Source of the DNA: Nemertoderma westbladi
Lineage: Eukaryota > Animalia > Xenacoelomorpha
Length of the DNA stretch: 45,230 nucleotides
Direction: 5' to 3'
Assembly (NCBI GenBank): GCA_032718475.1
Contig: JAUCBJ010000289.1
Coordinates: 1-45,230 of the forward strand
In this document: positions 1,960 to 42,672 of the stretch, piece by piece
How positions within the stretch are numbered: the stretch's first letter is position 1
Layout of the letters: every line of letters starts with the position of its first letter
Made by a program: the position numbers and the translations under genes
The notes under the pieces: generated by a model
What the model saw: the letters and a program-made list of their open reading frames with translations, nothing else
What the model was told of the DNA's origin: nothing
Database searches by the model: none

Positions 1960-2760
1960 TGACTCCCAGTATGGCGCCAATGTGTAATTATATATGACCA
2001 CTTTTGGTATTTTTGGGTGACAGAGTCTAGCATTGTGTCGTAGCTTTGTGGGGGAATCCAGGTGTCGTCCTCACCGATATCCAGTTTATATTGGTCCGGT
2101 ACTTTAGGTATGTAGCCCAGGACTGGGAAGTTCAATATGGGATGAATTCCCCCCAAACTCTTGGAAAATGTGAAGAGGTTAGATCCGAAAAAATGGAACG
2201 CATACACATGGGAACCTTACCAGCAATGACAATGTCAACAAACCAGCAAAGACTTGCCACAAGGGTGTCACTGCATCACCATTCATTGGGCTAATGAGGT
2301 CCTTAAAAATCTGTGGCTGGATACCATCAGGGCCTTCCACACTCCCACAAGGGAAGGAGCGGAAGAAGTCCCGTACAACTGCAGGGGTATAAGGGTAGGC
2401 TGTGTTCGGGATGGGAGGGAGTGGCTTGCGCCTGTCCACAGGTCTGCTTGGGTGCTTGAGGTGGAGTGAGGGCAGAGTCTCCTTTGTGTTGGGAGCAAGA
2501 CTGTCCTTAGAAGAGGCAATTCGGATTGCTCCCTTAATATCCCCAGCCTCGATTTTCTCTGCCACAGAAACTGCAAGATGTGGTAAGTCATCCTCCGACA
2601 GTTTGGTAACTTGGGACATGGGGCATGCTTGGGTCATGGAGGTGTCCTGGGGAAAGTTGCGGAAGGCTTGTATCCTCTGATTGACTTCAGAGGCAAAGGA
2701 TCGTTGGAGACGCTTTCCTCCTCTTCGTGGGACTGGGATGCATTTATGGCTCACTTGTAG
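1960..2760 (-). mobile_element. Decayed, internally deleted CRE-type retrotransposon fragment
   Basis: Translations HLAVSVAEKIEAGDIKGAIRIASSKDSLAPNT, GPDGIQPQIFKDLISP and FFGSNLFTFSKSLGGIHPI match the 16414-20178 protein; the frame is broken by frameshifts. Confidence 0.85.
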
Positions 2761-2948
2761 AAGTTAGTTACTTAGTTAGTTAGTTCGTAAGTTAGGTTGT
2801 ACAGTAGTGAAACAGTAATAAAAAATTGGTTTTTTGTGTAAATGTATAGAACATTATATAATGCATGCAAAAACTGTGTTAGGCTTACTGCTATTCGATC
2901 ATTAGTGTAGTTATATTATGGTAGCGGATTAAATCCGCTGCACCACCC

Positions 2949-3504: not shown

Positions 3505-5299
3505 GTATAAATCTGACTTTAAACTGAAGTTTAAACCTACGTCAATAGTTATTACTGTGACGCACACGGGACGCCAACATGAGTAAAGGACGTTTCTTTC
3601 TAAACTTTTGCCGGACTACATACGTAGGCCTACCAAGTTTCATTTAATTTCAACAAGGAATGACCAAGTTATTTGCAATCAAAAATTTACGATGACGACG
3701 ACAGAAAACGACAACGACAACGACGATGACAGACAGCTCGTTAATGGCACCCATATGCTAACCCATACCCGCACCCATACCCATATGTGTGGTACTTTAT
3801 GTTTAGTCACATAGTCGCTTTTTTAATGATATCACTTATGTGCCTTGCATTGATATAAATTTGTTGACCTTTGTATCAAACAGTTTATTCTGATATTTAC
3901 ACAAACGAATGAGTAATAGGAAGTATAATTGATTAATAATTTCTAGCTATAGTTAGATATTATAAAATCTTAATTACTAATTCATTTTATTAAAAGACAG
4001 ATAGACAGAAACGCATTACCCCCAACTGATCATATGATCAGAAAGTTTGTATAATTCATAAAATTATTACTCCACTCAGAAAATAAATTTCTATTACTAT
4101 AATAACTATTTCTGTAACATAAATTATTATATAATGTTATAATGATTTAACCGTAGCATAGAATGGGATAATAACTATATTTATTACCCTATTATTGAGT
4201 TATTTTGATAATGGGGAATAGTCCCATTATCCCTATATACCCTTGGGCAGGAACAGCTTCGGGCTTCTCCCTCGGTTGTTTCCTGCCCGTGCCCACGGGT
4301 TAAATAACCGGGAAAATATCTCAATAATAGGGTATAAGTGTGTTATTCCATGACACTATATTCTGGGACATACATGGTGTATACTGTATATTCTTATCAC
4401 TATTTTTTTCCTATACTGTATTGATACTATTTAATTCAAAGAATATGACTTATGGTATGGTATACATTATTTCAGTAATCTTGTTTTATGTCTATTATTT
4501 CAGTAATTTTTGTAACAGTAACTTTTAATTTTCATTAATTTTCAGTAACTTTAATATGTGGCCTTTCTTCAATAGAGAAATAAATTTATTAATAATTATG
4601 TATTTATATACTGTAGTAAGTAACAGCGTAAATTTTATAGCAGTTTCTTAGATTTATTTCCCAGCTGCAGATAAGGGGACTTTCAACGGAATAAAGAGCG
4701 GGTGTAACAAGGGCGCATTTTTGCTTGCATCCTTTACCCTATTAAACCAGGGAGGGGGGGGGGGGGGGTGTTTTTTTTGTTATAATTCTGAAACAAACGC
4801 AGTTGGGAAGTTGGGCTTTTCCTAAAAATCTATTATCTTCCTAGTAGTGAAAACCGTTTTCAAAAATATTGATAAATAAATATTGTATTTTTGAACAAAC
4901 TAACTAAACAAATAGACCTATTTGTTTTACTAATAATTGATCTACGATTTTTTTATGAATAAACGTGGGTCTTAAATATTAGAAACAGGTTTGTCAATAA
5001 TATAGGTTTAAAATATGTATATTTATTTATAAAATATGTATAATGTATATGACATATACATATTCAGTTTGTCTAAAAATTTGCAGATGAAAAAGGAAAA
5101 ATTGAATTGTAAAAATAAATTAGATAATAGATATAATGTAACAGATGGAAGATGATGAGACATAGTCAGTCATTATGGGCAAACCCCAATAAATACAATA
5201 AATACATTCAATATATTAAATAAATACATTGTCAAAATACATTACTGATTGTTTATACATACAATCGCCTGTATAATGATCACCTGAATAACGAATTCC

Positions 5300-6832
5300 A
5301 TGGCAACTTCGAACTCCTACAACATTACAAGAGAGGGGAAAAAATTATGTCTAATTGTCAATATAGCAGAATATGATGGATGGAATATGGGAATAAAAAT
5401 ACCTGGAAGAGTGGAAGGGTCATCACATGATGTAAGATATATAAAGGAGGTATTCGGAGTAAAGTTGGGATGTCAGATAGAGGAATTACATGATGATGAA
5501 GGTAAAATAAAAAATAACATAACAGATACAGAGTTGGTAAAATATTTAGAAGATTTTCGTAGTCAACCAGAACTAAAAGATATTGAATGTCTCTTTGTGT
5601 TCCTGATGAGTCATGGAGTTGAGGGCAAGATTGTTTGTTCTAATGGCGAACTGGTTGCTATAAGAGATATTGTGGAACTATTCTCAACAGAATGTTTGGC
5701 ACTAAGTGGTTTGGTACCAAAGCCTCGGATATTCTTTGTAGAAGCCTGCCAGTCCAACCCTTATCCTTATCCGGATTTCGATTTAAATTTTACTGATCGT
5801 AAATTTGAAAATATGGCTGTAGCAATTGGTTGCAGCCCAGGAGAGGAGCTACCAAATTATCCTGACCAAGGAACAACTTTTATACATCTTGTTTGTCAAG
5901 TAATTGAAAATATACTACATAAAAACACAGCGGGGGATGATGTTAAAGTGGATTTATTACCAATCTTGAGGAATTTCAATATAGTACACCGTGGTACTAC
6001 TAATAAAGAATATTCAATTATATCGCGACCACATATATTTGACAACTTATCACAATCAGTGCATCTTTTAGATTTTGTTCCACAAATACCAACTGTTATT
6101 CTTCAACGGTGTGGAGTTCCAAAAGTTCCAAAATTCCATATTTCCCGTCCAAAATTGATAGAAAATATTAGAAATTATTTGATGCAGCTGAGAGATAAGC
6201 CTTCAGGATGGGTTGTGATTTCCGGTATGGCTGCCATCGGTAAAACAACGCTGGTTCTCGATGGTGTAAATCATGAGCATATTACAAAGACATTTCCAGG
6301 AGGCATATTTTGGCAGCATATTGGACCACTGGGAATTGGACCTGTTGGTGAAAATGTTATCATTCAGAAAATGAAAGAAATTTGTTTAATGTTAGATTAT
6401 GAGTCTTCTCAGTTAATCAGCCAGTTATTCAGTATTAAGAGCTGCACCATTGCTTTGAATAAAATTATTCATAAGAAACAGCTAGACAATAAGATATGTT
6501 TGTTAATTTTGGATGATGTATGGGAAGCATATGCAGTTCAGGCTTTCGATATAAATTGCTCCATTATTGTTACAACGCGAGACGGTACGTGTGTGTCTAG
6601 TGATTATGCAAATAGATTTACTGTTTGCGTTACAGATGGGTTAAATAACTTGCAATGCGAGGAATTAATAAAAATGTGGCTCGGGAAAGAACAAGTGCTA
6701 TCTGAAGATGTAAAAAAAGTAATAGCCAAATGCTATGGTTCACCATTAGCAATTAATTTAGTTGGAGCAGTAAAGAAGAGTAACCCAAGACTTACTTGGG
6801 AATATGTTGACGAATGTCTTCCTAAAGTGTAG
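5300..6832 (+). CDS. Caspase (peptidase C14A) domain plus NB-ARC ATPase domain
   Basis: Caspase motifs: RVEGSSHD, CLFVFLMSHG (catalytic His), KPRIFFVEACQ (catalytic Cys), p10-like GTTFIHLVC. NB-ARC motifs: Walker A GMAAIGKTT, Walker B LLILDDVW, sensor IIVTTRD, GSPLAI. An upstream in-frame TGA at 5285 leaves no prodomain in this exon. Confidence 0.9.
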   Translation: MATSNSYNITREGKKLCLIVNIAEYDGWNMGIKIPGRVEGSSHDVRYIKEVFGVKLGCQIEELHDDEGKIKNNITDTELVKYLEDFRSQPELKDIECLFVFLMSHGVEGKIVCSNGELVAIRDIVELFSTECLALSGLVPKPRIFFVEACQSNPYPYPDFDLNFTDRKFENMAVAIGCSPGEELPNYPDQGTTFIHLVCQVIENILHKNTAGDDVKVDLLPILRNFNIVHRGTTNKEYSIISRPHIFDNLSQSVHLLDFVPQIPTVILQRCGVPKVPKFHISRPKLIENIRNYLMQLRDKPSGWVVISGMAAIGKTTLVLDGVNHEHITKTFPGGIFWQHIGPLGIGPVGENVIIQKMKEICLMLDYESSQLISQLFSIKSCTIALNKIIHKKQLDNKICLLILDDVWEAYAVQAFDINCSIIVTTRDGTCVSSDYANRFTVCVTDGLNNLQCEELIKMWLGKEQVLSEDVKKVIAKCYGSPLAINLVGAVKKSNPRLTWEYVDECLPKV

Positions 6833-7497
6833 AATTTTAGAGTTAGAGTTAGTGTAGAATATCTAACTTCCAATCTGAAAACGTTATATTTATCATTGGC
6901 TGTGTTTGGTCAAGTTAGTTGTCACGAATTCCCTTCTAATATAGTTGGTTTTTTATGGGGTTTAAAAATTGGTGATACACTCCTAACATTGAATCGCCTT
7001 GTAAATAAATAAATCCCTTGTTTCGTACAATTCCGACTCTATGATGTGGTCTTTACACCCGCTGCTGATAAAATTTATTGATGAAGAAATTGATGAAGAA
7101 ATTGTTGATATTCACCATCAATTAGTTAGCAAATGTATCGAACATAAATCGAAGGAAGAAGCGCAGGATCTTAACAAGTCATATATGTTCCAGTACCTTG
7201 ACAAGCACATGGCAAAGGCGAAACTCTGGTTAAAAAGACATCAATTATTAACTGACATTCTATGGATTAAATCGAAAATTGAGTTCAGTGGGCCTGGGAA
7301 TCTACTAGCTGATTACGAGTTGAATGATCACAATCACACTGATGAACAAATAACGGACATGATGAGTTATCAGAGTGTTTTAAAACTGTACTGCTCTGAT
7401 CTTACAGGCTCACATGCTTGCGACATAGTTCAAGTTGGATTGATGAGTCCAAAAAATTCAAGTTTATACAAAAAGTCCCTGGAATATGCAATTAAAG
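6833..7497 (+). pseudogene. Apaf-1-like winged-helix and helical domain 2, after the stop and across the frameshift
   Basis: Same frame after the TAG: SVEYLTSNLKTLYLSLAVF...VGFLWG...LNRLVNK. Removing one AAAT gives VNKSLVSYNSDSMMWSLHPLL (compare Apaf-1 VNKSLL...LHDL), then LLTDILWIKSKIEFSGPGNLLADY (compare Apaf-1 LDWIKAKTELVGPAHLIHEF). Confidence 0.85.
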
Positions 7498-9098
7498 GTA
7501 TGTTATTTTTTTAAAAGGTTATTATTAATTTATATTGCATTATTTGGAAATGCAACAAACACACCTTATATAATTGCTTTATTTTAATATATCTAAAAAT
7601 GTGACTATTAAATAATTTGACCTTTAGAACTATTAGGCTATAACTATAGGGCTATTTCAATTGTCTCATTGTTGTTAGAGGTTTTTGAATTGATTATAAA
7701 GGTGGATGACCTACAATTTGTATTATGTGGCTTCAGTTTTAATGTCGAATATCGGCGGTAGTGACTTTGCAACAAAAAGTTCTGAGTGAATTCATGTCAA
7801 GGCGGGTTTACACATGGCAACTTTTTGAGCAACTAGCAACCCTTTTTTCGGAGCAACTTAATTTGTTCGCTGTTTACACTTGGAAACTTTACCAGCAACT
7901 TTACCAGCAACTTGGCAGGCAACTTTTTAAGCAACTTGGTTAGTTTGATGTAAAATATAGGTATCTTTATATACTGGGCTATTATTATATTATTGCACTG
8001 CCTCCCAATATTTGTGTTACATTTCGAATTCCCACTGTCCCACTGTGCAAATACTCTACAATTTACCTTCAAATGTCTAAAAGAAAAGCAACTGCCATTA
8101 TTAGATGTTCCCCAATTAAGTTGGATGTTTCAAGTGTGTAGTTTGTCTATAGGTTGTATATTTAATTGTTTTTATAGTGGTGCCGCATGTTTCTGGTAGT
8201 GACTGAAGGTAATTGCTCTAATTAATTTATTAAATTTTAAATTAAATTTAAATTAATTTAAATTATCTTAATTTTAATCGGGTTAATGTTAACATGTTTA
8301 GCAGTTCCCCAGATCACTATTCCGTACGTAATATCAGGGACAGGATACGATACGAAAACGGATTTTCGTATTTCGTATCGCAGTATTTTCTTCGTATCGA
8401 ATTTCGTATCGTATCATAAAAATTGACTTCGTATCGTATAATACGAATAAATATTTTCTCGTATTTCGTATCGTATTTTCGTATTTTAATATTTCGTAAA
8501 TATTAATGTTTTTAACAGTCAAATCAAAGATCACACCACTTATTTCTTTAAATTTTTTTCTCAAAATTGGTGTATTAATTAGATTTCAGCTTACAGTTTT
8601 GCTCTGCCAATAAAATGTGTAAGACAGTTGGATCGTTCACATTGTAATTAACTGCAGAATAATTATAAAAAGAGCACTATAATATAATATAATTACTGTC
8701 TAAATAAACTTTTATTATTTTTCATAGTATTATTTTGACTTAGAAATTTAAGTTTTGAATTTTTTTCCATATTGGTACATCAAATTCAAAATTATTCCTC
8801 AACTATAATATTAGGCCGTGTTGCATAATGTCCTTATGGATATTGAAGCCAGTAGACACACTATTGGAAATAAAGAAATAGACAACTCCAATCATACCTT
8901 ATACAACCTTGGAGGTATTTCATTAGTCTCCTATAGCTTGACACTTGAACGGAACCGCCTCCACTTTGCAGGACTTTGCCTTCACAGCGAGGACCAGCCA
9001 GTGCATAATCTTGTACTTTGGCAGCCTCATGGAGTGAATAAGCATGGTGGACAGCCCATGACTTTATTGAGACGCATCTTAAAGGACAGTGGCCTTAA

Positions 9099-9956
9099 CC
9101 CTATTCCACCTGGGCTCTTTTGTCCGAGATTCCACCTGGGGTTGGGCATAATATGCCCAACAGTTTATTATACACTAAAAAGTAATGATAATTTTATCAA
9201 AATTTTTAAGTTATTATTTTTAATTTAAAAGTTTATAGAAAAATATATAATGCATCTGTTCTGAGTTTTATATATTCATAATTTAAAATAATATATCCAT
9301 ATAAATTAATTATCATGAAGATAACCCATTATAGTAAAAAGATGAGATAATACTATACATACACCTCCCAAAACCACTGTCTGCCTAACTCTGCCAGACA
9401 TCCCAGGTGAAAATTTTCCTTGCAGGGGTGCTGTTATTGAATAGATTTATTCACCTCTGTTTATGTCTGCTGTATTACATTAGGAATATACTGGGTTCAA
9501 TGGTGGTTGTTGGTTTATCCTAGTAGACTTATTGCTTGCTTATCTGTTAGTTTAGTATTTTGTTATTAAAAAATAATGTGATTGATGTGTACTAATCCAA
9601 GCAGTAGACAATCTTGTGTTTGAATTTAACTTTACAACCCAGCCAAGTGAATGTCCGGGACCGTAATTGGTTGTATTCTAGCTTGTTGACCAGGGGAACT
9701 ATCCAACCAGGGATTATCTTTTCTACCAGTTAGGCTAATAAAGATATTATAATAAAAAAATGTGACTATGATATGAAAAACACACCATAGCACAAAAAGT
9801 ATAAATTATGAAAAAAATATTTTGTTACCATCAGAAAGCCAATTAAATTCTAGGAAAAGTCAATGAATTTCATAATAATACATAAAAATCATCATCATGA
9901 ATTTCTGAAAATAAAAAGTGTTGGGCAGATTCTGCCCAACCCCAGGTAGAATAGGG
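9099..9956. mobile_element. Non-autonomous piggyBac-type DNA transposon
   Basis: TTAA duplicated at 9095-9098 and 9957-9960; TIRs CCCTATTCCACCTGGG / CCCAGGTAGAATAGGG; no transposase ORF. Confidence 0.85.
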
Positions 9957-9984
9957 TTAAAGATGCGGATGATCTAGCAAATGT

Positions 9985-12900
9985 TGTTAGCTTATTCAAT
10001 CCCGCCAACACCCCATAAAGTTATTAGCCGATAAGCAATATTGGGAGCCACGAGATTGGGCAATTGACCAACTCGTGCCATCCCAATAAGAATGGGAAGG
10101 AGGCACACAATAGAGGGTCAGGGGCCAAACCCCTAACCCAAGGAGAACAGGTGGAGTGAACGGGAATACTCCACGGGGCGCCAACAAGGGTATTAACCAA
10201 TCAGAGGGGGGAATGGCATCGATTGAGTAGCACTAAGGCCACCGTGCAATATAACCAATAACCTATTAATCAGTGATTCAGTTATCTCAGTGCAGCAGTG
10301 CTAGCGTAGGGTACAGCCAATTAGTTTAGTTAGGGGATCACGGGACTTTAGTTACCGTATCCCGCCTACCGTATAATTCACAATATATCTATATCCTATA
10401 ACCTATTATTATACACCGAACTTCAGAACTCAGTTATCTTTATTTCACTCTTATACACGGCGGGGACGCGTGGACTAAATACCACATCGGATAAATCGGG
10501 ATCCCTCCTGGATCCCGTCACAGTAACTAAACCGAGCTGCCGCCCTAGTTAAACTCTAAGAACTGCAACCTAGCTAGCCGAATCATCAGCCACAAACGAG
10601 ATGAGTGAATCGGGCGAGACACCGACGCGGACCCCGGACGAAGACCTAACGATCCGCGAGGCTGCGACCAAACGATACAGGCCCACGACGCCGGAGCCAT
10701 CGATAACGGGCGAACCGGAAGCACAGGACGAGGAGGGCCTGGAACCCGAAGTCGAGCCAAGAGAGAGAGAGAGCGAGACGGAGGGAGAGGGAGATGAGTC
10801 GACACGGGACGGAGAACGGCGCGCCGATGTCGCCGGCCAGCTACCGGCCGAGGGCGACGAGCGGCCCACCGAAACGGCGACGGTGGGGCCGACGGTGCGA
10901 CGTCGGACACGAAGAGACGGAGGAGAGATCGGTACCGATGTCGCCGGCCAGCTACAGGCCGAGGGCGACGGACGGCCCACCGGAACGGCGACGGTGGAGC
11001 CGCCGGTACGACGTCGAACCCGGAGGGACGGAGGAGAGGTCGGCGACGAGGACGTCGGGGTTTCTGAGCGACTTCGACGGGCCTACAACGCGACCCGGAA
11101 GCTGATAAACGACGCCAAGAAGGAAGGGGCGAAGGTAGACGAGGTGAGACTGAGAAAGCGACTAGGTGAGTCGGATAGACACTTAAATTACCTAATACGT
11201 TTTGGGCAGAGAGAACTGGCCGGGGAGAGAGCAGAAAGGATAGCCGGCGAACTGTTTGAACTATGGGAGTGTGGGAGTATGGAACCTAGTGTAGCGCCAG
11301 TGTACATAGGGCCATACTTGGTCGATGCCCGGGGAGTAAAACCAGTGGGTTGGAGGGGACTCGAAGGGGGCGAATCCGAGGTTAACCCCGAGGATTCGGC
11401 CTCTTCGGTCGGAGAAAGCTCCGGGAGGCCGGGGAAAGTTAGTAGGTCGGGAAAGCGGGGGAAGTCCGTCGTAACCGATAAGTCTGTTACATCCTCCGCG
11501 AAAGAAAGAGTGGTGAGAGAGATAGGTGCCGCATACCGCCTCGACGTGGCAGAGCAAGGTCAGAAGGAAATGGAGGAACGGCTAGAGGAGGGGAGAGCGC
11601 GGTTAGCGAGGGAAGCGGCATTGATTAAAGAGAACGGTGAGAGGGTCGAAAGGGCTTTGAGGAGCCTTAGGGAGAGTGACGAAATAGAGGAAAAGGAGTG
11701 TAGAGAGCGTGAGGCTAGGGAGGAAAGGGAACGCAGAGAGCGTGAGGCAAGGGAGGACGAGGAACGCAAGGAACGTGAGGCGAGAAGGGAAAAGGAACGC
11801 AAGGAATATGAGGCAAGAAAGGAAAAGGAACGCAAAGAACGTGAGGCGAGACGAAGGGAGAACGCTAGGAGTGTAGTAGAGTCGGCCAGACGGGACAGCC
11901 AGGAGAGTGAGGAGAGAGGGGCAAAGGCTGAGCGAGAGTTACGGGAATTAGAGAAACGCCAAGGTGTATCGGCAAAAAATAAGATTAGACGGGCGCACGA
12001 GCTGGAATTGGTCCGAGTGTTGCCGTCTGAAAGCGGGGCCGGCTCGAGTATTTTTGAGGAGCCAGGGGCCGTAGATACATTTATTAATACCCCACTGACA
12101 GGGACCGCACGACAGACTCAAGACTGGTGCGACAGTACGAGCGGGGGGGGTAATAATAATAATAATGGTACAGTAGACATTGTTGATATTAATAGTACCG
12201 TATGGGATAACACTAATCAAACCTTTGTTGCAGGAAATACTTTGCCTAGTGGTAGTAATTTAAATTTAAATCAGAACAATCCCAATACTAATGTAGAAAA
12301 TAATTCTAATGTTGATGTAGTTACGCAAAATAATTCAAATAATCAAAATAATAATCCGAATTCGGACCTACAAAATAACTTAAATAACGCAATTACACAG
12401 AATAATTCGAATAATTTAAATAATGATTTTAGCCCGAATTTACAAAATAATTCAGTTAACGTGGTCGCGCAGAGTAATGCAAATGGTTTTGTTTCAAGCG
12501 AGCAAATTAATTCCGTTTCTAATATGGGTGCTATTAATGTAAACACGTCGGGCCTACGTAACCAGGGAGCAGAGGGCCTGGTAGGCCACGTAGTTAGTAG
12601 ACAGGGAGCAGAGGGCCTGGTAGGCCACGTAGTTAGTAGACAGGGAGCTGAGGGCCTGGTAGGCCACGTAGTTGGTAGGCAGGGAGTAGAGGGCCTGGAA
12701 GGCCACGCAATAGCAGAGGGAGAGGCGGGGGTGAACAGACCCGACTGTGGTAGGGTCGATGTGTCGACTAGAGAGGTATATAATAGCGGGGAGAGAGGTA
12801 GCGAAGTTAGATGTAGCGAGTGGGGGGGGGGGGGGCTACGAGCACCCCACAACAGAGAGTTAGCGGCGAGAGGGGGGGGGGGGGGCAGAGAGTGTCCCAC

Positions 12901-14561
12901 AGCCGTCAGCGGACAATGCGAGGGCCGAACAAGGTAAACCGCAACAACCGGTGACGGAAAGTAATAGGGGGATTGCGAGTATCCCCAGCGACGTGCGATC
13001 GAGCAGAGAAAGACAGGTTGACGTCGTGGGAGGGCAGACGGAGCGTCGAGCCCGATCAGAGGAGGAAAGAAGAACAGTGGGGTTTAACCGGGAGGTCGAC
13101 GAGAGATTTCGTGAGCGGGAATATTCCACTGATAGGAGAAGAGAGGAAGATAGTAGTAGAAGTATCGCCGCAAACGATAGAAGAGCGAGGACGGACAGCG
13201 AGCCGTCGGTAGTCGAGATGAGAACGGAGAGTCAGTGGGGTCGGACTCCGGGAGATTGCCGTCACCCCGGAGGGATGCGATCCGGTGAGACGCATTACAC
13301 GCCGAGAGAGGGGTACGCGATGTACCGGTACGAAGATGAAAACAGTGGAGAGGGGGGTCGAAGAGAAACTTTCCGACGGAATATACCTACCGATCGAGAA
13401 TACGGTAGCCGCGGGGAGGATTATTCGAGAAGAATAAACTTCGATCCCGAGCAACACATGCAGACTGTAGGGCATACTGTAGGTCTTACTGCACATACCG
13501 TAGGCCATACTGAGAGAGGCAATGTAGGCGATAGGATAGCGCGGACAACGGGATTAAACCCGGAAGTCGCGGAATACATACCGGCGGGTAGGCCAGAAGC
13601 TGATAGGCCTATACCGGTACCAGCACAGCAGTATGACTACAGCATGCAGGGACATAACATATACCCAGGGGAGGGGGGAATTATTGCGGATAGGTGCATG
13701 GGCCCCAACGTATTAACATCAACCCCAGTACCAGACATACCGGTGGGGGGGGGGACAGGGTGACATTCCCCCATCACAATATCAACAATATACCCCGATG
13801 GTAGCAAGAACAACGAGACCCTTGGACGAAAACAGATCGTGTGACACAGATATATGGAGGGGGCCGCTACCCCCAATGACATACCCATAGGGGGCGGCCT
13901 GGAAAGCCGACCCCGAGAGAAAAGAATTCCACCCCACACCCGATACTAGATCGGGATCCAGCGGGATTGTAACGCACTTTTATTGGTTGATGCTATCTTC
14001 TTACCGGGAAGATAGCATGGGGGGGAGTGTTAGCTTATTCAATCCCGCCAACACCCCATAAAGTTATTAGCCGATAAGCAATATTGGGAGCCACGAGATT
14101 GGGCAATTAACCAACTCGTGCCATCCCAATAAGAATGGGAAGGAGGCACACAATAGAGGGTCAGGGGCCAAACCCCTAACCCAAGGAGAACAGGTGGAGT
14201 GAACGGGAATACTCCACGGGGCGCCAACAAGGGTACCAATCAGAGGGGGGAATGGCATCGATTGAGTAGCAGTAAGGCCACCGTGCAATATAACCAATAA
14301 CCTATTAATCAGTGATTCAGTTATCTCAGTGCAGCAGTGCTAGCGTAGGGTACAGCCAATTAGTTTAGTTAGGGGATCACGGGACTTTAGTTACCGTATC
14401 CCGCCTACCGTATAATTCACAATATATCTATATCCTATAACCTATTATTATACACCGAACTTCAGAACTCAGTTATCTTTATTTCACTCTTATACACGGC
14501 GGGGACGCGTGGACTAAATACCACATCGGATAAATCGGGATCCCTCCTGGATCCCGTCACA
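9985..14561 (+). mobile_element. Non-autonomous LTR retrotransposon, BEL/Pao-like, pol-less
   Basis: LTRs 9985-10522 and 14028-14561 (TGT...ACA; two substitutions and one 4-bp indel seen). 5-bp TSD AATGT at 9980-9984 and 14562-14566. Polypurine tract 14019-14027. No RT or integrase motifs. Confidence 0.9.
10601..13763 (+). CDS. Low-complexity gag-like ORF of the LTR element, probably one frame broken at a G homopolymer
   Basis: ORFs 10601-12937 and 12951-13763; the second frame stays open back to the G-run at about 12872-12885. It has a PEDSASSV motif followed by an E/R coiled coil as in BEL/Pao gag N-termini, an Asn-rich tract, and 39-bp repeats (RQGAEGLVGHVVS). Confidence 0.6.
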
Positions 14562-14994
14562 AATGTCATGGGTGATAGGGAGTTGTGGCGGTGCAATTTT
14601 GTCGACAAGCCGACACAGCATTCTTAATATATATGTAATATATATAATGCAGCTGCAATGCAACGAAAGTAGTAGTAGTATGTATTAAGATCCTACTGAT
14701 ATAGATACATAGATATATGTACAAACAAACAGATCCGAATATGTATTACATACAGTATAGTAGATATCACATAAGAATAGGAGTAGGAGAATATGTACTG
14801 TAGTGGTATGGGGAGTCCAGAGTCCAGTTGTCCCTACACCTACAGTAACTGTTAGTTGTAACTTGATGAACCATTGCAGGAGGTAAATATTTGCTTGTTG
14901 CCATGGTTAAAGTGCGGCTATCAATCAATTTCAATGTATCCGCTTCTAGAAAAGAAGAGGGGGCCATTCACAATATATTTATAATGTTTCATAA

Positions 14995-15568
14995 CCTTCG
15001 AATACGTAAGGGAAAGGCATGGGCAGCCTTGAATAGGCTTTCCAGGATTTGGAATTCACCGAGAATTAATCGGAAACTTAAGGTCCGATTATTTAGAGCA
15101 GCAGTAGTTCCAGTACTCCTCTATGGGAGTCCATGCTGGGCTCTAACTGCTGAGGACACCAAATCTCTGGATGGCACATTCACAAGAATGCTACGCCGGG
15201 TTCATTGTGTCAAGTACAATGCACACATCTCCAACCAGACACTATATAACATTGGAGGCGTCTCATTGGTTCCCCCAAGCTTTACACTAGAACAAAATCG
15301 CATCCGCTTTGCAGGACATTGCTTTTGCCGTGAGGACCAGCCAGTGCATAATCTTGTACTTTGGCAGCCTCATGGAGTGAATAAGCATGGTGGACAGCCC
15401 ATTACTTTCTTGAGACGCATCTTAAAGGACACTGGCCTTGAAGATGCGGATGATCTAGCAAATGTCATGGGTGATAGGGAGTTGTGGCGGCGCAATTTTG
15501 TCGACAAGCCGGCACAACATTCTTAAAAATGCAGCTGCAATGCAGCATGCCGATCCTAGTAGTAGTAG
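14995..15568 (+). mobile_element. 5'-truncated RTE-clade LINE
   Basis: RIRKGKAWAALNRLSRIW...VVPVLLYGSPCWAL...RIRFAGHC...MGDRELWR, the typical RTE ORF C-terminus; (TAG)n tail. Confidence 0.9.
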
Positions 15569-15941
15569 ATCATAATCTTGGTGGATGGGGAACACAATTA
15601 GGTAATTGTTTAAAAAAATACTTATATTTTCCGTAAAACGACGTTTGAAGATGTATTCCGAGCAGTTGTAATGGTTGCCGGATTTTGAAAAAAATCACTA
15701 AAACGATATAAAAAAGCATATAGTAATTTAACATAAAATATGCGCACATTTGTCTTAATTAAATTAACAAATAATTTACTTGTAATGTTGGTCAAGTAAA
15801 TGCCTTAGATGGATATTGGAAGCACACATTTAAGTAGATGAAATTGCACAATTTCCTTAAAGGGAATAAACATTTTTATAATTCCGTTAAAGAATTATGT
15901 ATAGAGAATGAAATATACTAATAACATATTTTATATTTCAG

Positions 15942-16224
15942 AACGGAGACTTTACTTTGACCTCTGCAAGATTAATAACAAATACTTTCAGTTCCGCGCT
16001 AGTCTCGATACAGAACCGGTTATAATTGCTGCGAGTACATCGAATACTCTTCATATATTGGATATTGAAGGGAATATAAAATATGAAAGATTAAAAGAAG
16101 AAGCGAGTATAACATCCTTGACGAAATTAATAGACCAACCTGTTTTTGCTTATGGGTGTGTAAATGGTGTTATTCGCGTTTATAATAATGGCAAACATAC
16201 TAAATTACCATCAACGTCTAATTC
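15942..16224 (+). CDS. WD40-like exon 2 of the caspase/Apaf-1-like locus
   Basis: Phase-compatible acceptor; IIAASTSNTLHILDI and SITSLTKLIDQPVFAYGCVNGVIRVYN resemble beta-propeller blades; an in-frame TAA follows at 16226. Confidence 0.7.
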
Positions 16225-16250
16225 GTAATCCAATCAACATCTGTAATAGT

Positions 16251-16340
16251 CTGCTAGCTCCGGCCCCGGCTCCGGCACTTTTAGGTTGCTCCGGTCCGGT
16301 ACCCGGCTCCGGCAAAAAAAATTGCTCCGGTCGAACCCTA
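16251..16340 (-). mobile_element. One end of a possible hAT-like MITE
   Basis: Cluster of CCGG motifs ending in GGTCGAACCCTA (reverse complement TAGGGTTCGACC); no partner end found. Confidence 0.35.
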
Positions 16341-16413
16341 CTATATACCTGTATACTGATATACCTACAGACCTATATCAACAACCTCTGCCCGTGAGAG
16401 GGCAGAGGGCGCG

Positions 16414-19400
16414 ATGGCCGGCAGCCTGGACGCCTCCGCGATGAACCGGAGCATTGTTGGGCACTCCTCCTGCCCACAGTGCCGCCGGGAAATCGCGGTA
16501 AACTCCGACGGGCGACTCCGTGTCCACGGACCGCTCGCCAGTAGGTGTCCAGGCTCGCGTACCCCCACCGGAACTGTACTCCCTTCATCCCTCCGTCCTC
16601 CTCCTCCTACATCTACACCTCCACCCACTACTTCCACCCCTATTCCTCTACCACCGTGCCCCCCGACTTTCGACTGGGCCACCCTTGGGGAGTGGGATAT
16701 CTTGGCGCGGCTGCGGAACTGCAAACAACGGCAGCTGCGCCACGTCCCCAGGGCCGCGCGTTCCAACTTTGCAGACCTCCTCGCTGACATCCTCGGGGAG
16801 GTAGCCACGCGGCCCAACGAGCCCCAGGGGTGGCTTAAACTACTGACCGTCAGCCACCACTGCCTCGCTACGCCCAAACGCGGGGGTCGGCGCCACACTC
16901 GGTCACTCGCTGCCACAATCAACGCGCGAGTGGCCGCCTTCCGTGCCGACCCCTTCGCGGACTCTAACTCCCCCGCCCCCCCAACTGCCACGAAGAAGCG
17001 TGGTGGTGCAGAGCGACTCGCGACGGCCGTAGCCGAAAAGATCGAGGACTCTGACGTGAAGGGCGCCATCCGGTTGGCATCCTCAGCAGACTCACTTGCG
17101 CCCAACACGCCGGAGACACTGGAGGCGTTGCGGAAGAAACACCCCGCACGGCCCGACAACCGCCGTCCAAACCCACCTCCAGTGGACCTCAACACTACGG
17201 CCTCGCCTTGTTCCTCTACTATCGCCCGCAGACTTATCCTGTCGTTCCCGAGCGGCAGTGCCGGAGGACCAGATGGGTTGCGGCCCCAAATACTCAAAGA
17301 CCTGATCTCCCCCACCAACGGAGAGGCCGCGGCCCGTCTTCTACAACGACTCGCGGGATTCCTAAACACCACCACCTCCGGAGAAGTTCCCCTCGCCATC
17401 CGCCCCACCTTCTACGGCGCGAATCTCTTCGCGTTCACGAAGACGGAGGGTGGGGTGCGCCCGATCGCCGTTGGAAACACTCTGCGGCGACTGGTGGGGA
17501 AATACTCTGGCTTCCTAGCCCAGGGACCCCGTACCTCCTCCTATGGCACTGTCCAGCTCGGGATCGGCACCAAACTCGGCGCTGAAGCGGCGGCCCACGC
17601 AGCGAGGGCACTCTCCTCCTCCCCGAACCCACCCGGTAGTGTGTTGCTGAAGATCGACTTCAGCAACGCATTTAACTCCATCCGGCGGGATTCCATGCTC
17701 GAAACTGTGTACCAGTGTTACCCCAGCGTGTACAACTCCACGCTGGCGGCGTACGGAGCGCCTAGCTTCCTCCTCCATGGGGAGGATACACTCCTCTCTG
17801 AGGAAGGAGTTCAGCAAGGCGATGCGGACGGACCCCGGCTTTTCGGCGACACGGTGAACCCATTCATCCAATCGCTGCAGTCGAGGTTTAACATCTGGTA
17901 CCTAGACGACGGGAATCTCGCTGACCACTACCGGGTGGTGTTAGACGACCTCCGATCCGTCATCCTCGAGGGAGGTCGTTGCGGACTCCGGATCAACCCC
18001 TCCAAGTCGGAACTCTTCTTCCTTGGGGAGGAATCTCCGGAGTCCCGTCTATCCATCCAACGCAGGTTCGACGAGGTCTGCGAGGGGATTCAGGTGCGCC
18101 CACTAGAAGACCTGAAGATCCTGGGCGCACCCATAGGAGACAATGCCATCGTCTCCTGTCTCGACAACAAACTCGCGGACCTCCGGACTCTCGTCTCCCG
18201 ACTCCCTCTTCTCGACTCCCATCACGCCTTCTTCCTCCTGCGGTGCTCCTTCACCATTCCGCGACTGACGTACTTCCTCCGAACGGCTCCGTGTTTCGAC
18301 TTCCCGGGGCTGCTGGAGGAGTACGATTCCATCCAGCGGAGCACCCTGCAGGAGATATCCAACGTCCACCTGGACGACTCCGCGTGGGCACAATCCTGTT
18401 TGCCTGCGCGTTGCGGGGGTCTAGGACTGACCTCAGCTGTGCAGCTCGCACCTTCCGCCTTTCTGGCTTCCGCGGCTGCCTGCTCTGGACTCTCCTACTC
18501 CCTCTTTGAGTCTCCGGTGGACACCCCCTCCCCATCCCACAACCGTGCCCTCGCTGCGTGGTCAACGACTCTCGATCCTGTCGTGACCCCCGTTCCCCCG
18601 CCTCTAGCGCCACCATCCTTTACACCACCGCCACCACACGCAACGCCACCGCCACCATCCGCGACACCACCGCCTCCACCACCCACGACGCCACAACCCA
18701 CGACGCCACCGCCACCAGCCCTGACACCACCGCCTCCACCCACGACGACGCCACCACCCACTACGCCACCGCTACCACCCGCGACATCACCGCCACAACC
18801 CACTACGCCACCGCCACCGCCACCACACGCGACGCCACCGCCACCATCCGCGACACCACCCACGACGCCACAACCCACGACGCCACCGCCACCAGCCCTG
18901 ACACCACCGCCTCCACCCACGACGACGCCACCACCCACTACGCCACCGCTACCACCCGCGACATCACCGCCACAACCCACTACGCCACCGCCACCGCCAC
19001 CACACGCGACGCCACCGCCACCATCCGCGACACCACCCACGACGCCACAACCCACGACGCCACCGCCACCAGCCCTGACACCACCGCCTCGACCCACGAC
19101 GACGCCACCACCCACTACGCCACCGCTACCACCCGCGACATCACCGCCTCCACCCACGACGCCACAACCCACGACGCCACCGCCACCAGCCCTGACACCA
19201 CCGCCTCCACCCACGACGACGCCACCACCCACTACGCCACCGCTACCACCCGCGACATCACCGCCACCACCCACTACGCCACCGCTACCACCCACGACAC
19301 CACCGCCACTGTCCGCAACACCAACCACCCCCGCTGCTTTTCCGTCCGCGGCCACCAAGCAGTGGGCCTACCTGGCCCCTGTCCACGAGGCCAGGCTATC

Positions 19401-20175
19401 AGCCCTGCGGGAGTCCCTCCCACCATCCGGGGTGGCGAGGTTGAACTCCCTGGACCACCCCGCCGCAGGCTGCTGGCTTGACGCCATCCCCGTCAGCTCT
19501 CTGGGACTGAAGCTGACGGACTCGCAGTTCCGGATCTCGGTCGGCACTCGCCTTGGGAGCAGGCTAACCGAGCCCCACAGCTGTGCCCGGTGTGGCAAGG
19601 ATGTTCTGTCGGATGGCCTTCATGGGCTATCCTGCTCTAGGAGCCTCGGCAGACTTCCGCGCCACTCAATGGTTAACGACATTGTTCGCCGGGCGCTCAT
19701 CAGCTGTGGCGTCCCCGCTACGCTCGAGCCTCTAGGCTTGTGTAGAGGGGATGGGAAGCGAGTAGATGGCGTCACCCTGGTCCCGTGGAGCCGCGGACGG
19801 TTCCTCACGTGGGACGCGACGGTGGCGGACCCTCTGGCACCCAGCCACCTCGCCCAGACTCTATCCGCGGGAGGCCGTACTGCGGAGGAAGCGGAATCTC
19901 TAAAGATCCGCAAATATCAGGAACTCATGGACCGGGGCTACCTCTTCCACCCGGTGGCCTACGAGACATTGGGCCGCCCCGGCCCTGAAACATCCGAGTT
20001 CCTGAAGGAGATCGGGGCCAGACTCCACTCTGTCACCCAGGAGCCCCGATCTCACCGTTTCCTCCTGCAGAGGCTGGCAATCGCCATCCTAGTTGGCAAT
20101 GCGGCCTCCATCATAGGGACTGTGGACCCCTCACTCAACAATAACGAGGGACTCTACGAGATGGTCCACGGTCCC

Positions 20176-20178
<3 letters not shown>
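16414..20178 (+). CDS. Zn finger - reverse transcriptase - Pro/Thr repeat - Zn knuckle - restriction-like endonuclease (1254 aa)
   Basis: N-terminal CPQC..H..C; RT motifs GGVRPIAVG, KIDFSNAFN, GVQQGD, WYLDD; CARC..H..C; RHSMVND; RVDG...WDATV; KIRKY. Confidence 0.92.
18620..19325 (+). repeat. In-frame C/A-rich tandem repeat (177-bp / 59-aa unit) encoding a Pro/Thr tract
   Basis: CCATCCGCGACACCACCCACG recurs at 18844 and 19021; about 4 imperfect units. Confidence 0.9.
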
Positions 20179-20210
<32 letters not shown>

Positions 20211-20256
20211 ATACTCATTGTGCTTTTTGTACTTAGTAGTGCTTTTTGTACTTTAG

Positions 20257-21211
20257 TTATTTAATAATTTACTATAAACTATATTCGAATATAATACATG
20301 ATTTCACGTCTAATGACCGAGTAGGATTATTGGCATTTGTTACGCCATCAAACTATTTGGTTTCTTCTTATTGTGACTCTGAAAAAATCTGCGTGTGGAG
20401 TTATAACGAATCTGAGGAATTACTTGACTGGGATGGAAACTGGTTATCATTGAATAGTCCAACACTAATCCTTCACAGTTACTGGTGGTGGTTAGGAAAA
20501 AAAGAAAGACCTAAATTACTCCATAAAATTAACCCAAACCCAGGAATAAATATTAAGTATTTTGTTGCATTATGTGATAACAGGATAGCAACACTTCATA
20601 TGGATGGCAAGTTAGTCATCACGAATATATTATCAGGGAATGTTTTAATTGTTGATCAAATATTTCCTAATAATTATTGGTTGAAAGTTTTGCCTGATTT
20701 AAGTAATATCATAGTATTTAATTTTCCTGAAGAAAATACCCCTTTGATAAATTGGAATATTGAAGTAACTGATAGTGGTAGTGCATCTGTTGAACAGTGT
20801 ATTTCCAATATATCTGTATTCGGATTTTCAACCAACAGTTTATATATAGCTATAGGTTCTGATTCAGTTGTTTTTATTTACACCCAGGCTAAGGATAACT
20901 ATAATATTGATGTTGATAATTTAGACATTGGACCATTATTCGGTATTCATGGATGCAAATATAGAAGAACAGCTAAGATAATCGCATCAGAGCGAGTCTT
21001 ACAAATCGAGTTTATAAACAAGGATTGCAATTCGATTATTATTAGAGGACATTCGCACATTGCCATATATTTAATTAGAGGTTTATTGTTGCAAAGAATT
21101 CCTATAAGATACAGTCACTTCATTGATGATATCAGCTGTTCGTTAAGCTCATTGAAGTTTGTAGTTTTGGATGATGAAGATAATATATGTATATTTAAAC
21201 CTTTAATTTAA
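20257..21211 (+). CDS. C-terminal WD40-like segment of the caspase/Apaf-1-like locus
   Basis: Open frame of more than 300 codons with propeller-like blades (YLVSSYCDSEKICVWS, IATLHMDGKLVITNI, FSTNSLYIAIGSDSVVFIY). The end KFVVLDDEDNICIFK resembles the Apaf-1 terminus. The 5' boundary is uncertain. Confidence 0.7.
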
Positions 21212-21544
21212 AATATCATTGCTATATATTTATTTAGTTAATGATAACAACTATTGCTTTTGCTTTTGCTTACTTCAAGTTAATTGTTACGATATCATCT
21301 GATATGTTATGTGAATTGAAATGTTATCAAATGTTAGATTACCATTTTGAAATCTATTGGAAAATTTAGATATTTAATTAAAATAAAGTGTGTCTGTTGT
21401 AAATATATTTTTTACGCATGACATTTCATATCATTCGTCATATTTATTATCCTTTACCGGTTTTATTGATGATTCAAACAGCTGATTAAATTAATCACCC
21501 CCAAAAAAACAGTATCAATGCCCCACCCCACATGTTGCCTTCAA

Positions 21545-21803
21545 TCATCTTCACAGATATTCCTCCAAAAGGTTTCCATTCAATATCTATTCACAAACAT
21601 TCCTCCAACAGGTTATCATTCAATCTTCTTCACAAACATTCTTCCAAAAGGTTGTCATTCAATATTCTTCACAAACATCCCTCCAACAGGTTGTCATTCA
21701 ATATTCTTCACAAACATTCTTCCAAAAGGTTGTCATTCAATATTCTTCACAAACATTCCTCCAACAGGTTGCCATTCAATATTCTTCACAAACATTCCTC
21801 CAA
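21545..21803. repeat. 39-bp minisatellite, about 6 copies
   Basis: Unit CATTCAATATTCTTCACAAACATTCCTCCAACAGGTTGT. Confidence 0.9.
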
Positions 21804-24800: not shown

Positions 24801-25052
24801 CCATTCGGCTGTTATCTCTAGTCGTATGGTCCATGTCTGGGTGTTTAGGTTAACATCAACCACCTTTAGAATGGCGATTTTCAGACCAACTCGTATCTTT
24901 TTGGTATGATCTTCTCGCGGAACTATACCATAGCAGTGGTCGACATCAAGTTTATCTATAAGATCACTGGGGGTCTTTACAGAGACCCTCGCTGACGCAT
25001 TGTCTATCAGTTGGCATATTATTATTATAATTGTAAGAAACAAATGTTTCAT
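21786..25052 (-). CDS. Pentameric ligand-gated ion channel subunit, nAChR/5-HT3-like, Cys-less (about 451 aa, 3 exons)
   Basis: Exons 25052-24335, 23514-23053 and 21961-21786; both introns are phase 1 GT-AG. Signal peptide, WLD..W, IWKP, FPFD, M1 YIFNLLIPAIL, M2 SGERMGL, M3 YPILGYCY, M4 QWRFVSVILDK. Confidence 0.9.
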
Positions 25053-25559
25053 TATTATTAGTTCGTATAATCAAATAAATCTTACAGATAGTAAACACTG
25101 AACACTGAATACTGAACACATTTTTAAATATGTCTAAAATTTCTACTGGAATTAAAATATTTTGATTTTATATACAGTATGGGCTGTTCAAATATGGCTA
25201 AACATTTGTTTTTTCAAAAAATTTTCAAATTTCAGTCGCCCTCTACCGACCATTGCATGATGCAAGATTTGCGGTTAAAATGCTACTAGTCATTCAATCT
25301 GAGGTGAATTTGGCTGAAACAAATTTGTTTCGAATCACGGAGGAGAGCTCCACAAAAGTTATCGGTTAACATTATTTTGCAGTTTAGCGTTTTTATGAAA
25401 ATTAATTAATATTTATTAATATTTGGCTAAATTTTAACAAATTTTTGGCTTTAATCGGATTATCTGAATATTGGCGGTAAGAACAGAAATATAAAAATTT
25501 AAACCGAAAACTTTTAAAGAACTGCCGAAACCATTTCGAATGAGTCATAAATAAAGAAA

Positions 25560-42204: not shown

Positions 42205-42672
42205 TCAACTAAACGACGTTGAATTTTAACATCAATTTTTAACGTTATTTTGAAACGTCTGACATTGGTTAAATTTAATCATGTACAAAAGTGACTAAAC
42301 CCAAACGTTAAACTGACGTTGAATTTTAACATCAATTTTTAACGTTATTTTGAAACGTCTGACATTGGTTAAATTAAATATGTACAAAAGTGACTAAACC
42401 CAAACGTTCAACTGACGTTGAATTTTAACATCAATTTTTAACGTTATTTTGAAACGTCTGACATTGGTTAAATTTAATTATGTACAAAAGTGACTAAACC
42501 CAAACGTTAAACAGGCGTTTAATTTTAACATCAATTTTTAACGTTATTTTGAAACGTCTGACATTGGTTAAATTTAATTATGTACAAAAGTGACTAAACC
42601 CAAACGTTACACAGACGTTGAATTTTAACATCAATTTTTAACGTTATTTTGAAACGTTTGACATTGGTTAAA
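42205..42672. repeat. About 100-bp subterminal tandem repeat, about 4.6 copies
   Basis: GACGTTGAATTTTAACATC (or a near variant) at 42215, 42315, 42414, 42514 and 42614. Confidence 0.9.

What the first reader, a model, noticed from the sequence alone, without database searches (positions are those of the whole stretch)
5300..21211. Caspase fused directly to an Apaf-1-like NB-ARC/WD40 sensor: a candidate one-component apoptosome
Seen: one uninterrupted 510-codon frame carries a complete caspase p20/p10 domain (His in SHG, Cys in EACQ) followed by an NB-ARC domain. Apaf-1-like WHD, HD2 and WD40 segments follow downstream. Known: Apaf-1/CED-4/Dark use an N-terminal CARD to recruit a separate initiator caspase, whereas effector-STAND-sensor fusions with caspase-like proteases are typical of bacteria. 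The domain here has animal C14A motifs (RxxGSxxD, KPRIFFxxAC). Inference: ligand-triggered oligomerisation could activate the protease without an adaptor, giving a self-contained cell-death or immune switch. The intronless caspase-NB-ARC junction makes a gene-model artefact unlikely.
Basis: partly seen in the sequence, partly recalled or inferred. Interest (0 to 1): 0.92.

Follow-up and report, generated by a model that had tools for sequence, protein, structure and literature searches.

The report
Caspase fused to Apaf-1 death switch
An unidentified animal has a gene in which a caspase protease is joined in one reading frame to an Apaf-1-type cell-death switch; this copy is broken in three places, but other samples appear to carry unbroken versions, which would likely act as a sensor that switches on its own protease without a separate adaptor.

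Summary
The fusion is real. One 510-codon frame (5300-6829) holds an animal-type caspase (Pfam E 4e-20, His105/Cys150 intact) followed by an Apaf-1 NB-ARC (E 1e-32 to human Apaf-1). Apaf-1 winged-helix and HD2 segments and a likely single beta-propeller follow. No CARD was found. Contigs of two studies bridge the junction (one may be the window's source), so misassembly is unlikely.

The window's allele is dead: a stop at 6830, a 4-nt frameshift near 7010 and a 4.1-kb retroelement in the propeller exon. Length arithmetic on another sample's contig restores the frame at the first two lesions, two contigs stop exactly at the insertion's edge, and diverged paralogues keep the caspase-NB-ARC link. 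So intact copies probably exist, though I did not see their letters.

Likely mechanism: ligand-triggered oligomerisation dimerises the built-in caspase. Two of three aspartate-pocket residues appear changed, so it probably does not cut like a normal caspase.

Ten literature searches found no animal caspase-NB-ARC fusion; fungi and bacteria have analogues. The scan had not noted it on other DNA. Expression, activity and taxon range are untested; the sensitive homologue search never ran.

The parts
5300..6073 (+). Caspase (C14A-like) domain, aa 1-258, with only about 7 residues before it and no prodomain
   Evidence: Pfam Peptidase_C14 aa 14-207, E 3.8e-20; best PDB hits ancestral caspase-3/6/7 (E 3e-11), caspase-2 and caspase-8; aa 208-257 assigned by eye
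5612..5614 (+). Catalytic His105 (SHG)
   Evidence: aligned to the caspase SHG; position
5741..5749 (+). Glu148-Ala-Cys150: catalytic Cys; Glu stands where caspases have the S1 Gln
   Evidence: alignments; role of the Gln from PMC4357240 section 5
5855..5857 (+). Asn186, likely at the place of the second S1 arginine (caspase-7 Arg233, caspase-1 Arg341)
   Evidence: counted by eye between P-G 180-181 and G-x-x-F 191-194 against a recalled caspase motif; no printed alignment covers it
6089..6829 (+). Apaf-1-type NB-ARC and HD1: Walker A aa 309-316, Walker B aa 401-408, TTR sensor, GxP; about 6 residues link it to the last caspase strand
   Evidence: 115-122 bits to four fish Apaf-1 against 27-50 bits to eight bacterial NB-ARC
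6827..6848 (+). Lesion A: 22 nt holding the TAG (6830-6832) and a 9-nt copy of 6852-6860; looks like a deletion with templated fill
   Evidence: tblastn shows a 15-residue gap against Apaf-1 here; X2 record 9 has 58 letters where the window has 22
6833..7009 (+). Winged-helix segment, same frame as the NB-ARC, read beyond the stop
   Evidence: continuous tblastn alignment to Apaf-1 up to 7009
7006..7013 (+). Lesion B: 4-nt duplication that shifts the frame
   Evidence: X2 record 9 is 4 letters shorter than the window over 6849-7834
7014..7497 (+). End of the winged helix (LHP in place of Apaf-1's LHD) and HD2/APAF1_C
   Evidence: Pfam APAF1_C E 1.1e-19; Apaf-1 1z6t E 2.6e-11
7498..15941 (+). 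Intron, GT..AG, phase 1, 8.4 kb, filled with mobile elements
   Evidence: spliced tail is stop-free for 553 codons; element content
15942..16222 (+). Exon 2, 5' part: end of HD2 linker and first blades of the likely propeller
   Evidence: five beta-propeller Pfam families, all below their cut-offs
16223..20314 (+). Lesion C: 4,092-nt non-LTR retroelement (RT ORF 16360-20178) with a 9-nt target duplication at 16214-16222 and 20306-20314
   Evidence: RVT_1 E 3.4e-9; duplication and in-frame rejoin; X1 record 7 and X4 record 31 begin exactly at 20306 and carry 241 and 47 further letters
20315..21211 (+). Exon 2, 3' part: rest of the likely beta-propeller and the stop
   Evidence: Atlas 0.94 to WD40 clusters, recognition 1909, below 2300; Pfam only E 0.08; no PDB hit

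Best explanation
This is a broken allele of what is likely a small, lineage-specific animal gene family in which a caspase domain stands in place of the CARD of an Apaf-1 paralogue, and intact copies would likely work as one-piece sensor-proteases. Shown: the in-frame caspase + NB-ARC + winged helix + HD2 order, the intact catalytic dyad and nucleotide motifs, and the three lesions. Inferred from Apaf-1 and initiator caspases: a ligand bound by the propeller would release autoinhibition, nucleotide exchange would build a ring, and the ring would bring the attached caspase domains together so that they dimerise and become active without CARD-CARD recruitment. Because two of the three aspartate-pocket residues appear changed, the target is probably one dedicated substrate cut at a non-Asp or relaxed site (an immune or death effector) rather than the usual executioner cascade. 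Paralogues plus a null allele fit birth-and-death evolution of an immune-receptor family.
For: Domains and motifs. No prodomain: in-frame stop at 5285-5287, no YAG acceptor between 5170 and 5360, no CARD/DED/death hit in 23 of the upstream + strand frames scanned, no hit of a CARD-containing Apaf-1 profile upstream. Junction bridged by contigs of 3 of 4 runs, 2 of 3 studies (X1 record 2, X2 record 9, X3 record 16). X2 record 9 differs from the window by -3, +36 and -4 nt, which restores the frame at lesions A and B and refills 12 of the 15 residues missing against Apaf-1. Net indels of the three independent coding pieces are all multiples of three (-9, -3, -12). Paralogues: X4 record 25 has 66 other letters in 415; contigs in X1 and X2 join 5767 to 6116 across a diverged middle; summed depth at 5711 is 1,459 in X2 against 74 for record 9 (depth is not a copy number). 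Caspases and MALT1 are activated by dimerisation along beta-6, MALT1 with a domain directly behind it (PMC4357240). Forced dimerisation activates caspase domains (cited in PMC2575513).
Against: The only copy whose letters I could read is dead, with three lesions. The restored frame rests on lengths only: the 58 letters and the run-on letters were not displayed and may hold stops. X1 matches the window with 0 differences over two long pieces (records 7, 8) and may be its source. Glu for Gln is aligned, Asn for Arg is by eye, and the first Arg (R37) sits one residue further from its Gly than in the aligned caspase; mouse caspase-12 is predicted non-functional from a milder change at that Arg (PMC11121540). 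The linker is only about 6 residues, which may hinder an antiparallel dimer on a ring. The propeller assignment is weak. No homologue with this architecture came from another species in three word-seeded protein searches or among Atlas clusters; these miss distant or rare relatives.
Confidence: 0.5

Rival explanations
1. Intact copies are functional but the caspase domain is a poor or dead enzyme. It would serve as a docking module, like cFLIP-L, heterodimerising with an ordinary caspase on the ring to activate, retune or block it.
For: Two of three S1 residues appear changed (one by eye), the residue after Cys-x is Ser not Gly, and the C-terminal third of the domain matches no solved caspase by itself. 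cFLIP-L is a precedent for a pseudocaspase partner (PMC11121540 passages).
Against: His105 and Cys150 are both kept, whereas cFLIP-L has lost catalytic residues. Clan CD enzymes change P1 specificity readily through surface loops.
Confidence: 0.2
2. The fusion is a chance chimera of a caspase copy and an Apaf-1 copy that was duplicated several times in a repeat-rich genome and is decaying; no copy has a selected function.
For: Three lesions in one allele; a locus crowded with mobile elements; few introns; no relative found in other species. PMC10959488 section 6 proposes relaxed constraint on CARD-less Apaf-1-like genes.
Against: Both domains are far from any known parent (33% to fish Apaf-1) yet keep every catalytic and nucleotide motif; a paralogue 16% diverged keeps an in-frame net indel and paralogues keep the junction; another haplotype appears frame-intact; the spliced tail is stop-free for 553 codons.
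Confidence: 0.2
3. The fusion is an assembly artefact, contamination, or a bacterial or fungal caspase-like STAND gene taken up sideways.
For: The nearest Atlas clusters are bacterial CHAT- or caspase-STAND proteins (0.81-0.88, leads only). The split between bacteria and window + Apaf-1 in the NB-ARC tree has 75/98 support, not starred, and the window is a long branch.
Against: Contigs of two studies bridge the junction. The gene has a GT-AG intron and sits among animal genes. NB-ARC scores 115-122 bits to Apaf-1 against at most 50 to bacteria. The caspase half hits metazoan caspases and none of 16 plasmid matches covers it. No relative in prokaryote, viral or metagenome contigs by pattern search. 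GC3 is alike in both halves (0.25, 0.29).
Confidence: 0.04

Closest known systems
Apaf-1 / Dark / CED-4 apoptosome scaffolds (CARD-NB-ARC-WD40)
   Same: NB-ARC, HD1, winged helix and HD2 are homologous and in the same order, best matching vertebrate Apaf-1; Walker A, Walker B, TTR and GxP kept.
   Different: No CARD; a catalytic caspase domain takes its place. About one propeller (392 aa) instead of two, with no sequence match to Apaf-1's. LHP for LHD in the winged helix.
CARD-less 'Apaf-1-like' paralogues of amphioxus, sea urchin and Nematostella (PMC2246300, PMC10959488, PMC11747288)
   Same: Lineage-specific paralogues in which the N-terminal module of Apaf-1 has been swapped.
   Different: The swaps named in the passages read are CARD pairs, death, DED and TIR domains; none named is a caspase. 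The domain cartoons in the figures could not be seen.
Amphioxus TNFR-caspase and LRR-caspase 'shortcut' proteins (PMC2575513)
   Same: An animal sensor fused directly to a true caspase, proposed to bypass adaptors; TNFR-caspase was confirmed by cDNA.
   Different: They have no STAND switch and keep the QACxG motif; here the caspase is N-terminal to an NB-ARC and reads EACQS.
Fungal protease-NLRs (CHAT or S8 - NOD - WD40/TPR/ANK) and bacterial CHAT/caspase-STAND proteins (PMC12881547; Atlas clusters)
   Same: Same logic: effector protease, nucleotide switch and repeat sensor in one chain; fungal ones are linked to gasdermin control.
   Different: Their proteases are CHAT, S8 or bacterial C14 types. 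Both halves here are closest to animal proteins, which points to an independent fusion. No gasdermin was seen in the window ORFs scanned.
Initiator caspases (caspase-2, -8, -9) and the paracaspase MALT1 (PMC4357240)
   Same: His-Cys dyad and, likely, activation by induced dimerisation.
   Different: No CARD or DED prodomain; S1 pocket appears altered; covalently tied to its platform.

Membership tests
Apaf-1 (canonical) | N-terminal CARD | tested here: not met
   Caspase starts about 7 residues after the ATG; no CARD hit upstream or within
Apaf-1 (canonical) | NB-ARC with HD1, winged helix and HD2 (APAF1_C) | tested here: met
Apaf-1 (canonical) | Two C-terminal WD40 propellers that clamp cytochrome c | tested here: not met
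   Only 392 aa follow HD2 and they do not match the Apaf-1 propellers; a propeller fold is only weakly indicated
Apaf-1-like (CARD-less paralogue, as used in PMC10959488) | Apaf-1-type NB-ARC with an unconventional domain in place of the CARD | tested here: met
Apaf-1-like (CARD-less paralogue, as used in PMC10959488) | NB-ARC groups with metazoan Apaf-1 in a tree | tested here: inconclusive
   Scores favour Apaf-1 strongly; tree split 75/98, long branch, only 4 fish and 8 bacterial rows, no invertebrate rows
Caspase, family C14A | Caspase domain with His-Cys dyad; best relatives metazoan caspases | tested here: met
Caspase, family C14A | Arg-Gln-Arg S1 pocket giving aspartate specificity | tested here: inconclusive
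   Gln is replaced by Glu148 (aligned); first Arg probably R37 with shifted spacing; second Arg appears to be Asn186 (by eye only); residues defined
Caspase, family C14A | Six-stranded fold and antiparallel beta-6 dimer | tested here: inconclusive
   Single-sequence models had pLDDT 36 and 45; fold searches were uninformative
Caspase, family C14A | Proteolytic activity | not testable with these tools
   needs bench assay
Fungal/bacterial CHAT-STAND protease-NLRs | CHAT-type protease domain | tested here: not met
   Pfam gives Peptidase_C14 above cut-off and lists no CHAT at E up to 10; PDB hits are metazoan caspases
Fungal/bacterial CHAT-STAND protease-NLRs | Protease - NOD - repeat order in one chain | tested here: met
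   gene model, (repeat region weakly assigned)
Functional gene | Unbroken frame in this allele | tested here: not met
   stop, frameshift and insertion
Functional gene | Unbroken frame in some allele or paralogue | tested here: inconclusive
   lengths and break points of X1, X2 and X4 contigs favour it; letters not seen

The most novel reading that the evidence does not exclude
An animal lineage has independently built a one-chain apoptosome/inflammasome: an expanded family of caspase-Apaf-1-propeller receptors whose ring activates its own caspase, with a rebuilt pocket that cuts a non-aspartate site, converging on the protease-NLRs of fungi and bacteria from purely animal parts.
Probability: 0.35. 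Interest if true: 0.9.

Novelty: new variant of a known kind. Interest (0 to 1): 0.68.

Why it matters
In every studied animal apoptosome the scaffold and the caspase are separate proteins joined by CARDs. A natural covalent fusion would show that animals too can use the effector-switch-sensor design known from fungi and bacteria. It would offer a direct test of whether ring-induced proximity alone, with no CARD disc, activates a caspase, a long-argued point for caspase-9 (my own knowledge of the field). A true caspase with a changed S1 pocket would also bear on how aspartate specificity is gained and lost. If all copies prove dead, it is a curiosity of domain shuffling.

Tried and rejected
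No whole genome is held for this window, so paralogues could not be read directly. The sensitive HMMER search of protein representatives never ran (queue full on all ten tries); this is the main gap in the claim of rarity. Word-seeded protein searches: near length, 0 hits among 7,448 candidates; longer, 6 hits among 7,995, four fish Apaf-1 and two unnamed or bacterial-type NB-ARC proteins, all on the NB-ARC half only; caspase half against longer proteins, 0 of 477. Exact look-up: 0 of 8 window proteins in the collection, so the organism stayed unidentified. Pattern searches of metagenome, viral and prokaryote contigs: 0 of 131, 13 and 75 candidate stretches confirmed. Phage records: no match. 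No RNA holder was listed among 6 runs, which says nothing about expression. X4 shows little or no cover over much of the inserted element (table 2); lack of cover is not evidence. The 9-nt target duplication alone is not significant (289 of 2000 shuffles share a 9-mer); it counts only with the in-frame rejoin and the contig break points. Both structure predictions were single-sequence and poor, and the fold searches on them meaningless. No printed alignment over the second S1 arginine could be obtained. A first splice test had an off-by-one error (53 stops) and was corrected. No complex prediction was run, since no alignment of relatives was available. Rfam: 0 matches. Rejected: an upstream CARD exon; the retroelement lying in a second intron (the target duplication rejoins the frame without splicing); a bacterial origin.
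Full report
Setting. The window is AT-rich, repeat-rich animal DNA: it holds a Cys-loop receptor gene, a fibrinogen-domain gene and several retroelements. No whole genome is held and none of 8 window proteins is in the protein collection, so the animal is unidentified.

The observation. The frame 5288-6832 is open with ATG at 5300 and 510 codons; 0 of 2000 shuffles were stop-free. Pfam finds Peptidase_C14 at aa 14-207 (E 3.8e-20) and NB-ARC at aa 285-503 (E 1.3e-21). The caspase half hits metazoan caspases in the PDB, best the ancestral caspase-3/6/7 (E 3e-11), with His105 and Cys150 aligned to the catalytic dyad. Residues 264-503 match human Apaf-1 at E 1e-32. The NB-ARC scores 115-122 bits to four fish Apaf-1 and 27-50 bits to eight bacterial-type NB-ARC proteins; a tree of these 13 rows separates bacteria from window + Apaf-1 with 75/98 support only. 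About six residues link the last caspase strand (assigned by eye) to the first Apaf-1-aligned residue. There is no room for a CARD: an in-frame stop lies at 5285-5287, no YAG acceptor lies between 5170 and 5360, 23 upstream + strand frames gave no death-fold hit (one search listed 57 frames on both strands), and a CARD-containing Apaf-1 profile hit nothing upstream.

The gene model. After the NB-ARC come the winged helix (6833-7009) and HD2 (APAF1_C, E 1.1e-19). A phase-1 GT..AG intron runs 7498-15941. Exon 2 is split by an insertion; spliced and with the insertion removed, the tail is stop-free for 553 codons and the model is 1,124 aa with X at two breaks. The region after HD2 is 392 aa. It does not match the Apaf-1 propellers better than shuffles and has no PDB hit, but weak Pfam hits are all beta-propellers and Atlas features score 0.94 to WD40 clusters, below the recognition threshold. 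I read it as one divergent propeller.

This allele is dead. Lesion A: 22 nt at 6827-6848 hold a TAG and a 9-nt copy of nearby sequence, at a place where 15 residues are missing against Apaf-1. Lesion B: a 4-nt duplication at 7006-7013 shifts the frame. Lesion C: a 4,092-nt non-LTR retroelement with an open 1,272-codon RT frame sits in exon 2, flanked by a 9-nt duplication. The duplication alone is not significant (289 of 2000 shuffles).

Other samples. Four DNA runs of the same species label, from three samples and three studies, were laid on 4000-23999; all are contigs. The caspase-NB-ARC junction is bridged in 3 of 4 runs, 2 of 3 studies (X1 record 2, X2 record 9, X3 record 16); X4 record 25 stops aligning at 6095. 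X1 matches the window with no difference over records 7 and 8 and may be its source. X2 record 9 runs from 5933 to 7834 and differs in length by -3 nt, then 58 letters where the window has 22 (+36), then -4 nt: exactly what removes lesions A and B. X1 record 7 and X4 record 31, the two listed records that reach the site from the 3' side, both begin at 20306, the first base of the right-hand duplication, and carry 241 and 47 further letters, as an empty site predicts. The letters themselves were not displayed, so intact frames are inferred, not read. Paralogues are indicated by X4 record 25 (66 other letters in 415, net -12 nt), by contigs in X1 and X2 that join 5767 to 6116 across a diverged middle, and by summed depth far above that of record 9 (1,459 against 74 in X2; depth is no copy number). 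The net indels of three independent coding pieces (-9, -3, -12) are all in frame, a modest sign of coding constraint.

The active site. PMC4357240 (section 5 part 1 and passages read) names Arg87, Gln184 and Arg233 of caspase-7 as the aspartate pocket. Here the Gln is Glu148 (aligned), the first Arg is probably R37 with spacing shifted by one, and the second Arg appears to be Asn186, which I placed by eye against a recalled motif because no printed alignment covers it. Aspartate specificity is therefore doubtful. The dyad is intact, and clan CD enzymes vary P1 through surface loops (PMC11121540 passages); the same paper treats a milder change at that Arg in mouse caspase-12 as predicting loss of function, which counts against activity.

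Mechanism. Most likely (0.5): intact copies are sensor-proteases. Ligand binding at the propeller would release the switch, the NB-ARC ring would form as in Apaf-1, and the tethered caspases would dimerise along beta-6 and cut a dedicated substrate. Dimerisation as the activating step, and MALT1 dimerising with a domain directly behind the protease, are from PMC4357240; ring formation is carried over from Apaf-1 and untested; my models were too poor to test the geometry. Rivals: a docking pseudo-protease that partners an ordinary caspase (0.2); a decaying chimera with no selected function (0.2); artefact or transfer (0.04).

Comparison with what is known. Passages of PMC2246300 (supplements searched) list CARD pairs, death, DED and TIR domains as N-terminal swaps of invertebrate Apaf-1 paralogues. 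PMC10959488 (section 6 read whole, passages and supplement searched) defines CARD-less 'Apaf-1-like' genes with unusual domains and names no caspase fusion in the text. PMC11747288 (passages) describes a double-CARD lancelet paralogue. PMC2575513 (passages) reports TNFR-caspase, LRR-caspase and TIR-NB-ARC-WD40 in amphioxus, but not caspase-NB-ARC. PMC12881547 (passages) describes fungal NLRs with CHAT or S8 proteases that control gasdermins. Passages of PMC11463336, PMC13760059 and PMC13303787 had nothing on such a fusion. Ten full-text searches returned no paper describing an animal caspase-NB-ARC protein; the phrase search gave 0. Limits: subscription papers are mostly absent, one review could not be fetched, figures with domain cartoons were not visible, and PMC2246300 says it left out 'spurious' extra domains. 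Atlas neighbours were bacterial CHAT/caspase-STAND clusters, all under 0.9. Three word-seeded protein searches found no protein with both halves, but they miss distant relatives, and the sensitive search did not run. Earlier findings of this scan held no look-alike DNA and two microbial CHAT-STAND analogues.

Verdict. A real and apparently undescribed animal domain fusion, seen here as a null allele of what is probably a living paralogue family. It is not a canonical Apaf-1 (no CARD, one propeller) and not a CHAT-NLR; it files as an Apaf-1-like paralogue with a caspase effector, and likely works like the microbial protease-NLRs. New variant of a known kind; interest 0.68.

Noticed in passing
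window 9985-14561: LTR element in the intron: two LTRs 98.9% alike (9985-10522, 14028-14561), a 5-nt target duplication, two long + strand frames (10574-12937, 12864-13763) with no Pfam hit and no RT found. Looks young and non-autonomous, very abundant in the runs laid, and is nested in a fragment of a LINE-like repeat.
   Followed up: partly
window 16360-20178: The inserted non-LTR element has one open 1,272-codon frame with RVT_1, an internal Pro/Thr-rich tandem array (18608-19323) and, by eye, a C-terminal restriction-like endonuclease region; near-identical contigs in X1 and X3 suggest recent activity.
   Followed up: partly
window 2179-2763 (-): Decayed piece of a relative of the same non-LTR element, by eye from the translations.
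   Followed up: no
window 23045-25070 (-): Cys-loop ligand-gated channel gene in two large exons: Neur_chan_LBD E 2.9e-21 and Neur_chan_memb E 4.4e-11. The whole ligand-binding domain in one exon suggests an intron-poor genome.
   Followed up: partly
window 37881-38588 (+): Single-exon fibrinogen C-terminal domain gene (E 1.6e-45), a family often tied to invertebrate immunity (own knowledge).
   Followed up: no
window 41677-42075 (-): 131-aa frame that by eye resembles part of a 3'-5' exonuclease domain; no Pfam hit at E 0.1.
   Followed up: no
window 7050-7061 region (LHP motif in frame 7005-7514): The winged-helix motif reads LHP where Apaf-1 has LHD. In plant NLRs a change of this Asp gives autoactivity (recalled); its state in the paralogues is unknown.
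   Followed up: no
window 27646-28953, 34832-36078, 42210-43673: Long satellite arrays with units of 22, 20, 100 and about 21 nt.
   Followed up: no
L001 1854-5618: On an Acaryochloris plasmid a CHAT gene and an NB-ARC gene are adjacent, while the related plasmids L002 and L006 carry one longer NB-ARC gene at the same place; possibly a split of a CHAT-NB-ARC fusion.
   Followed up: no
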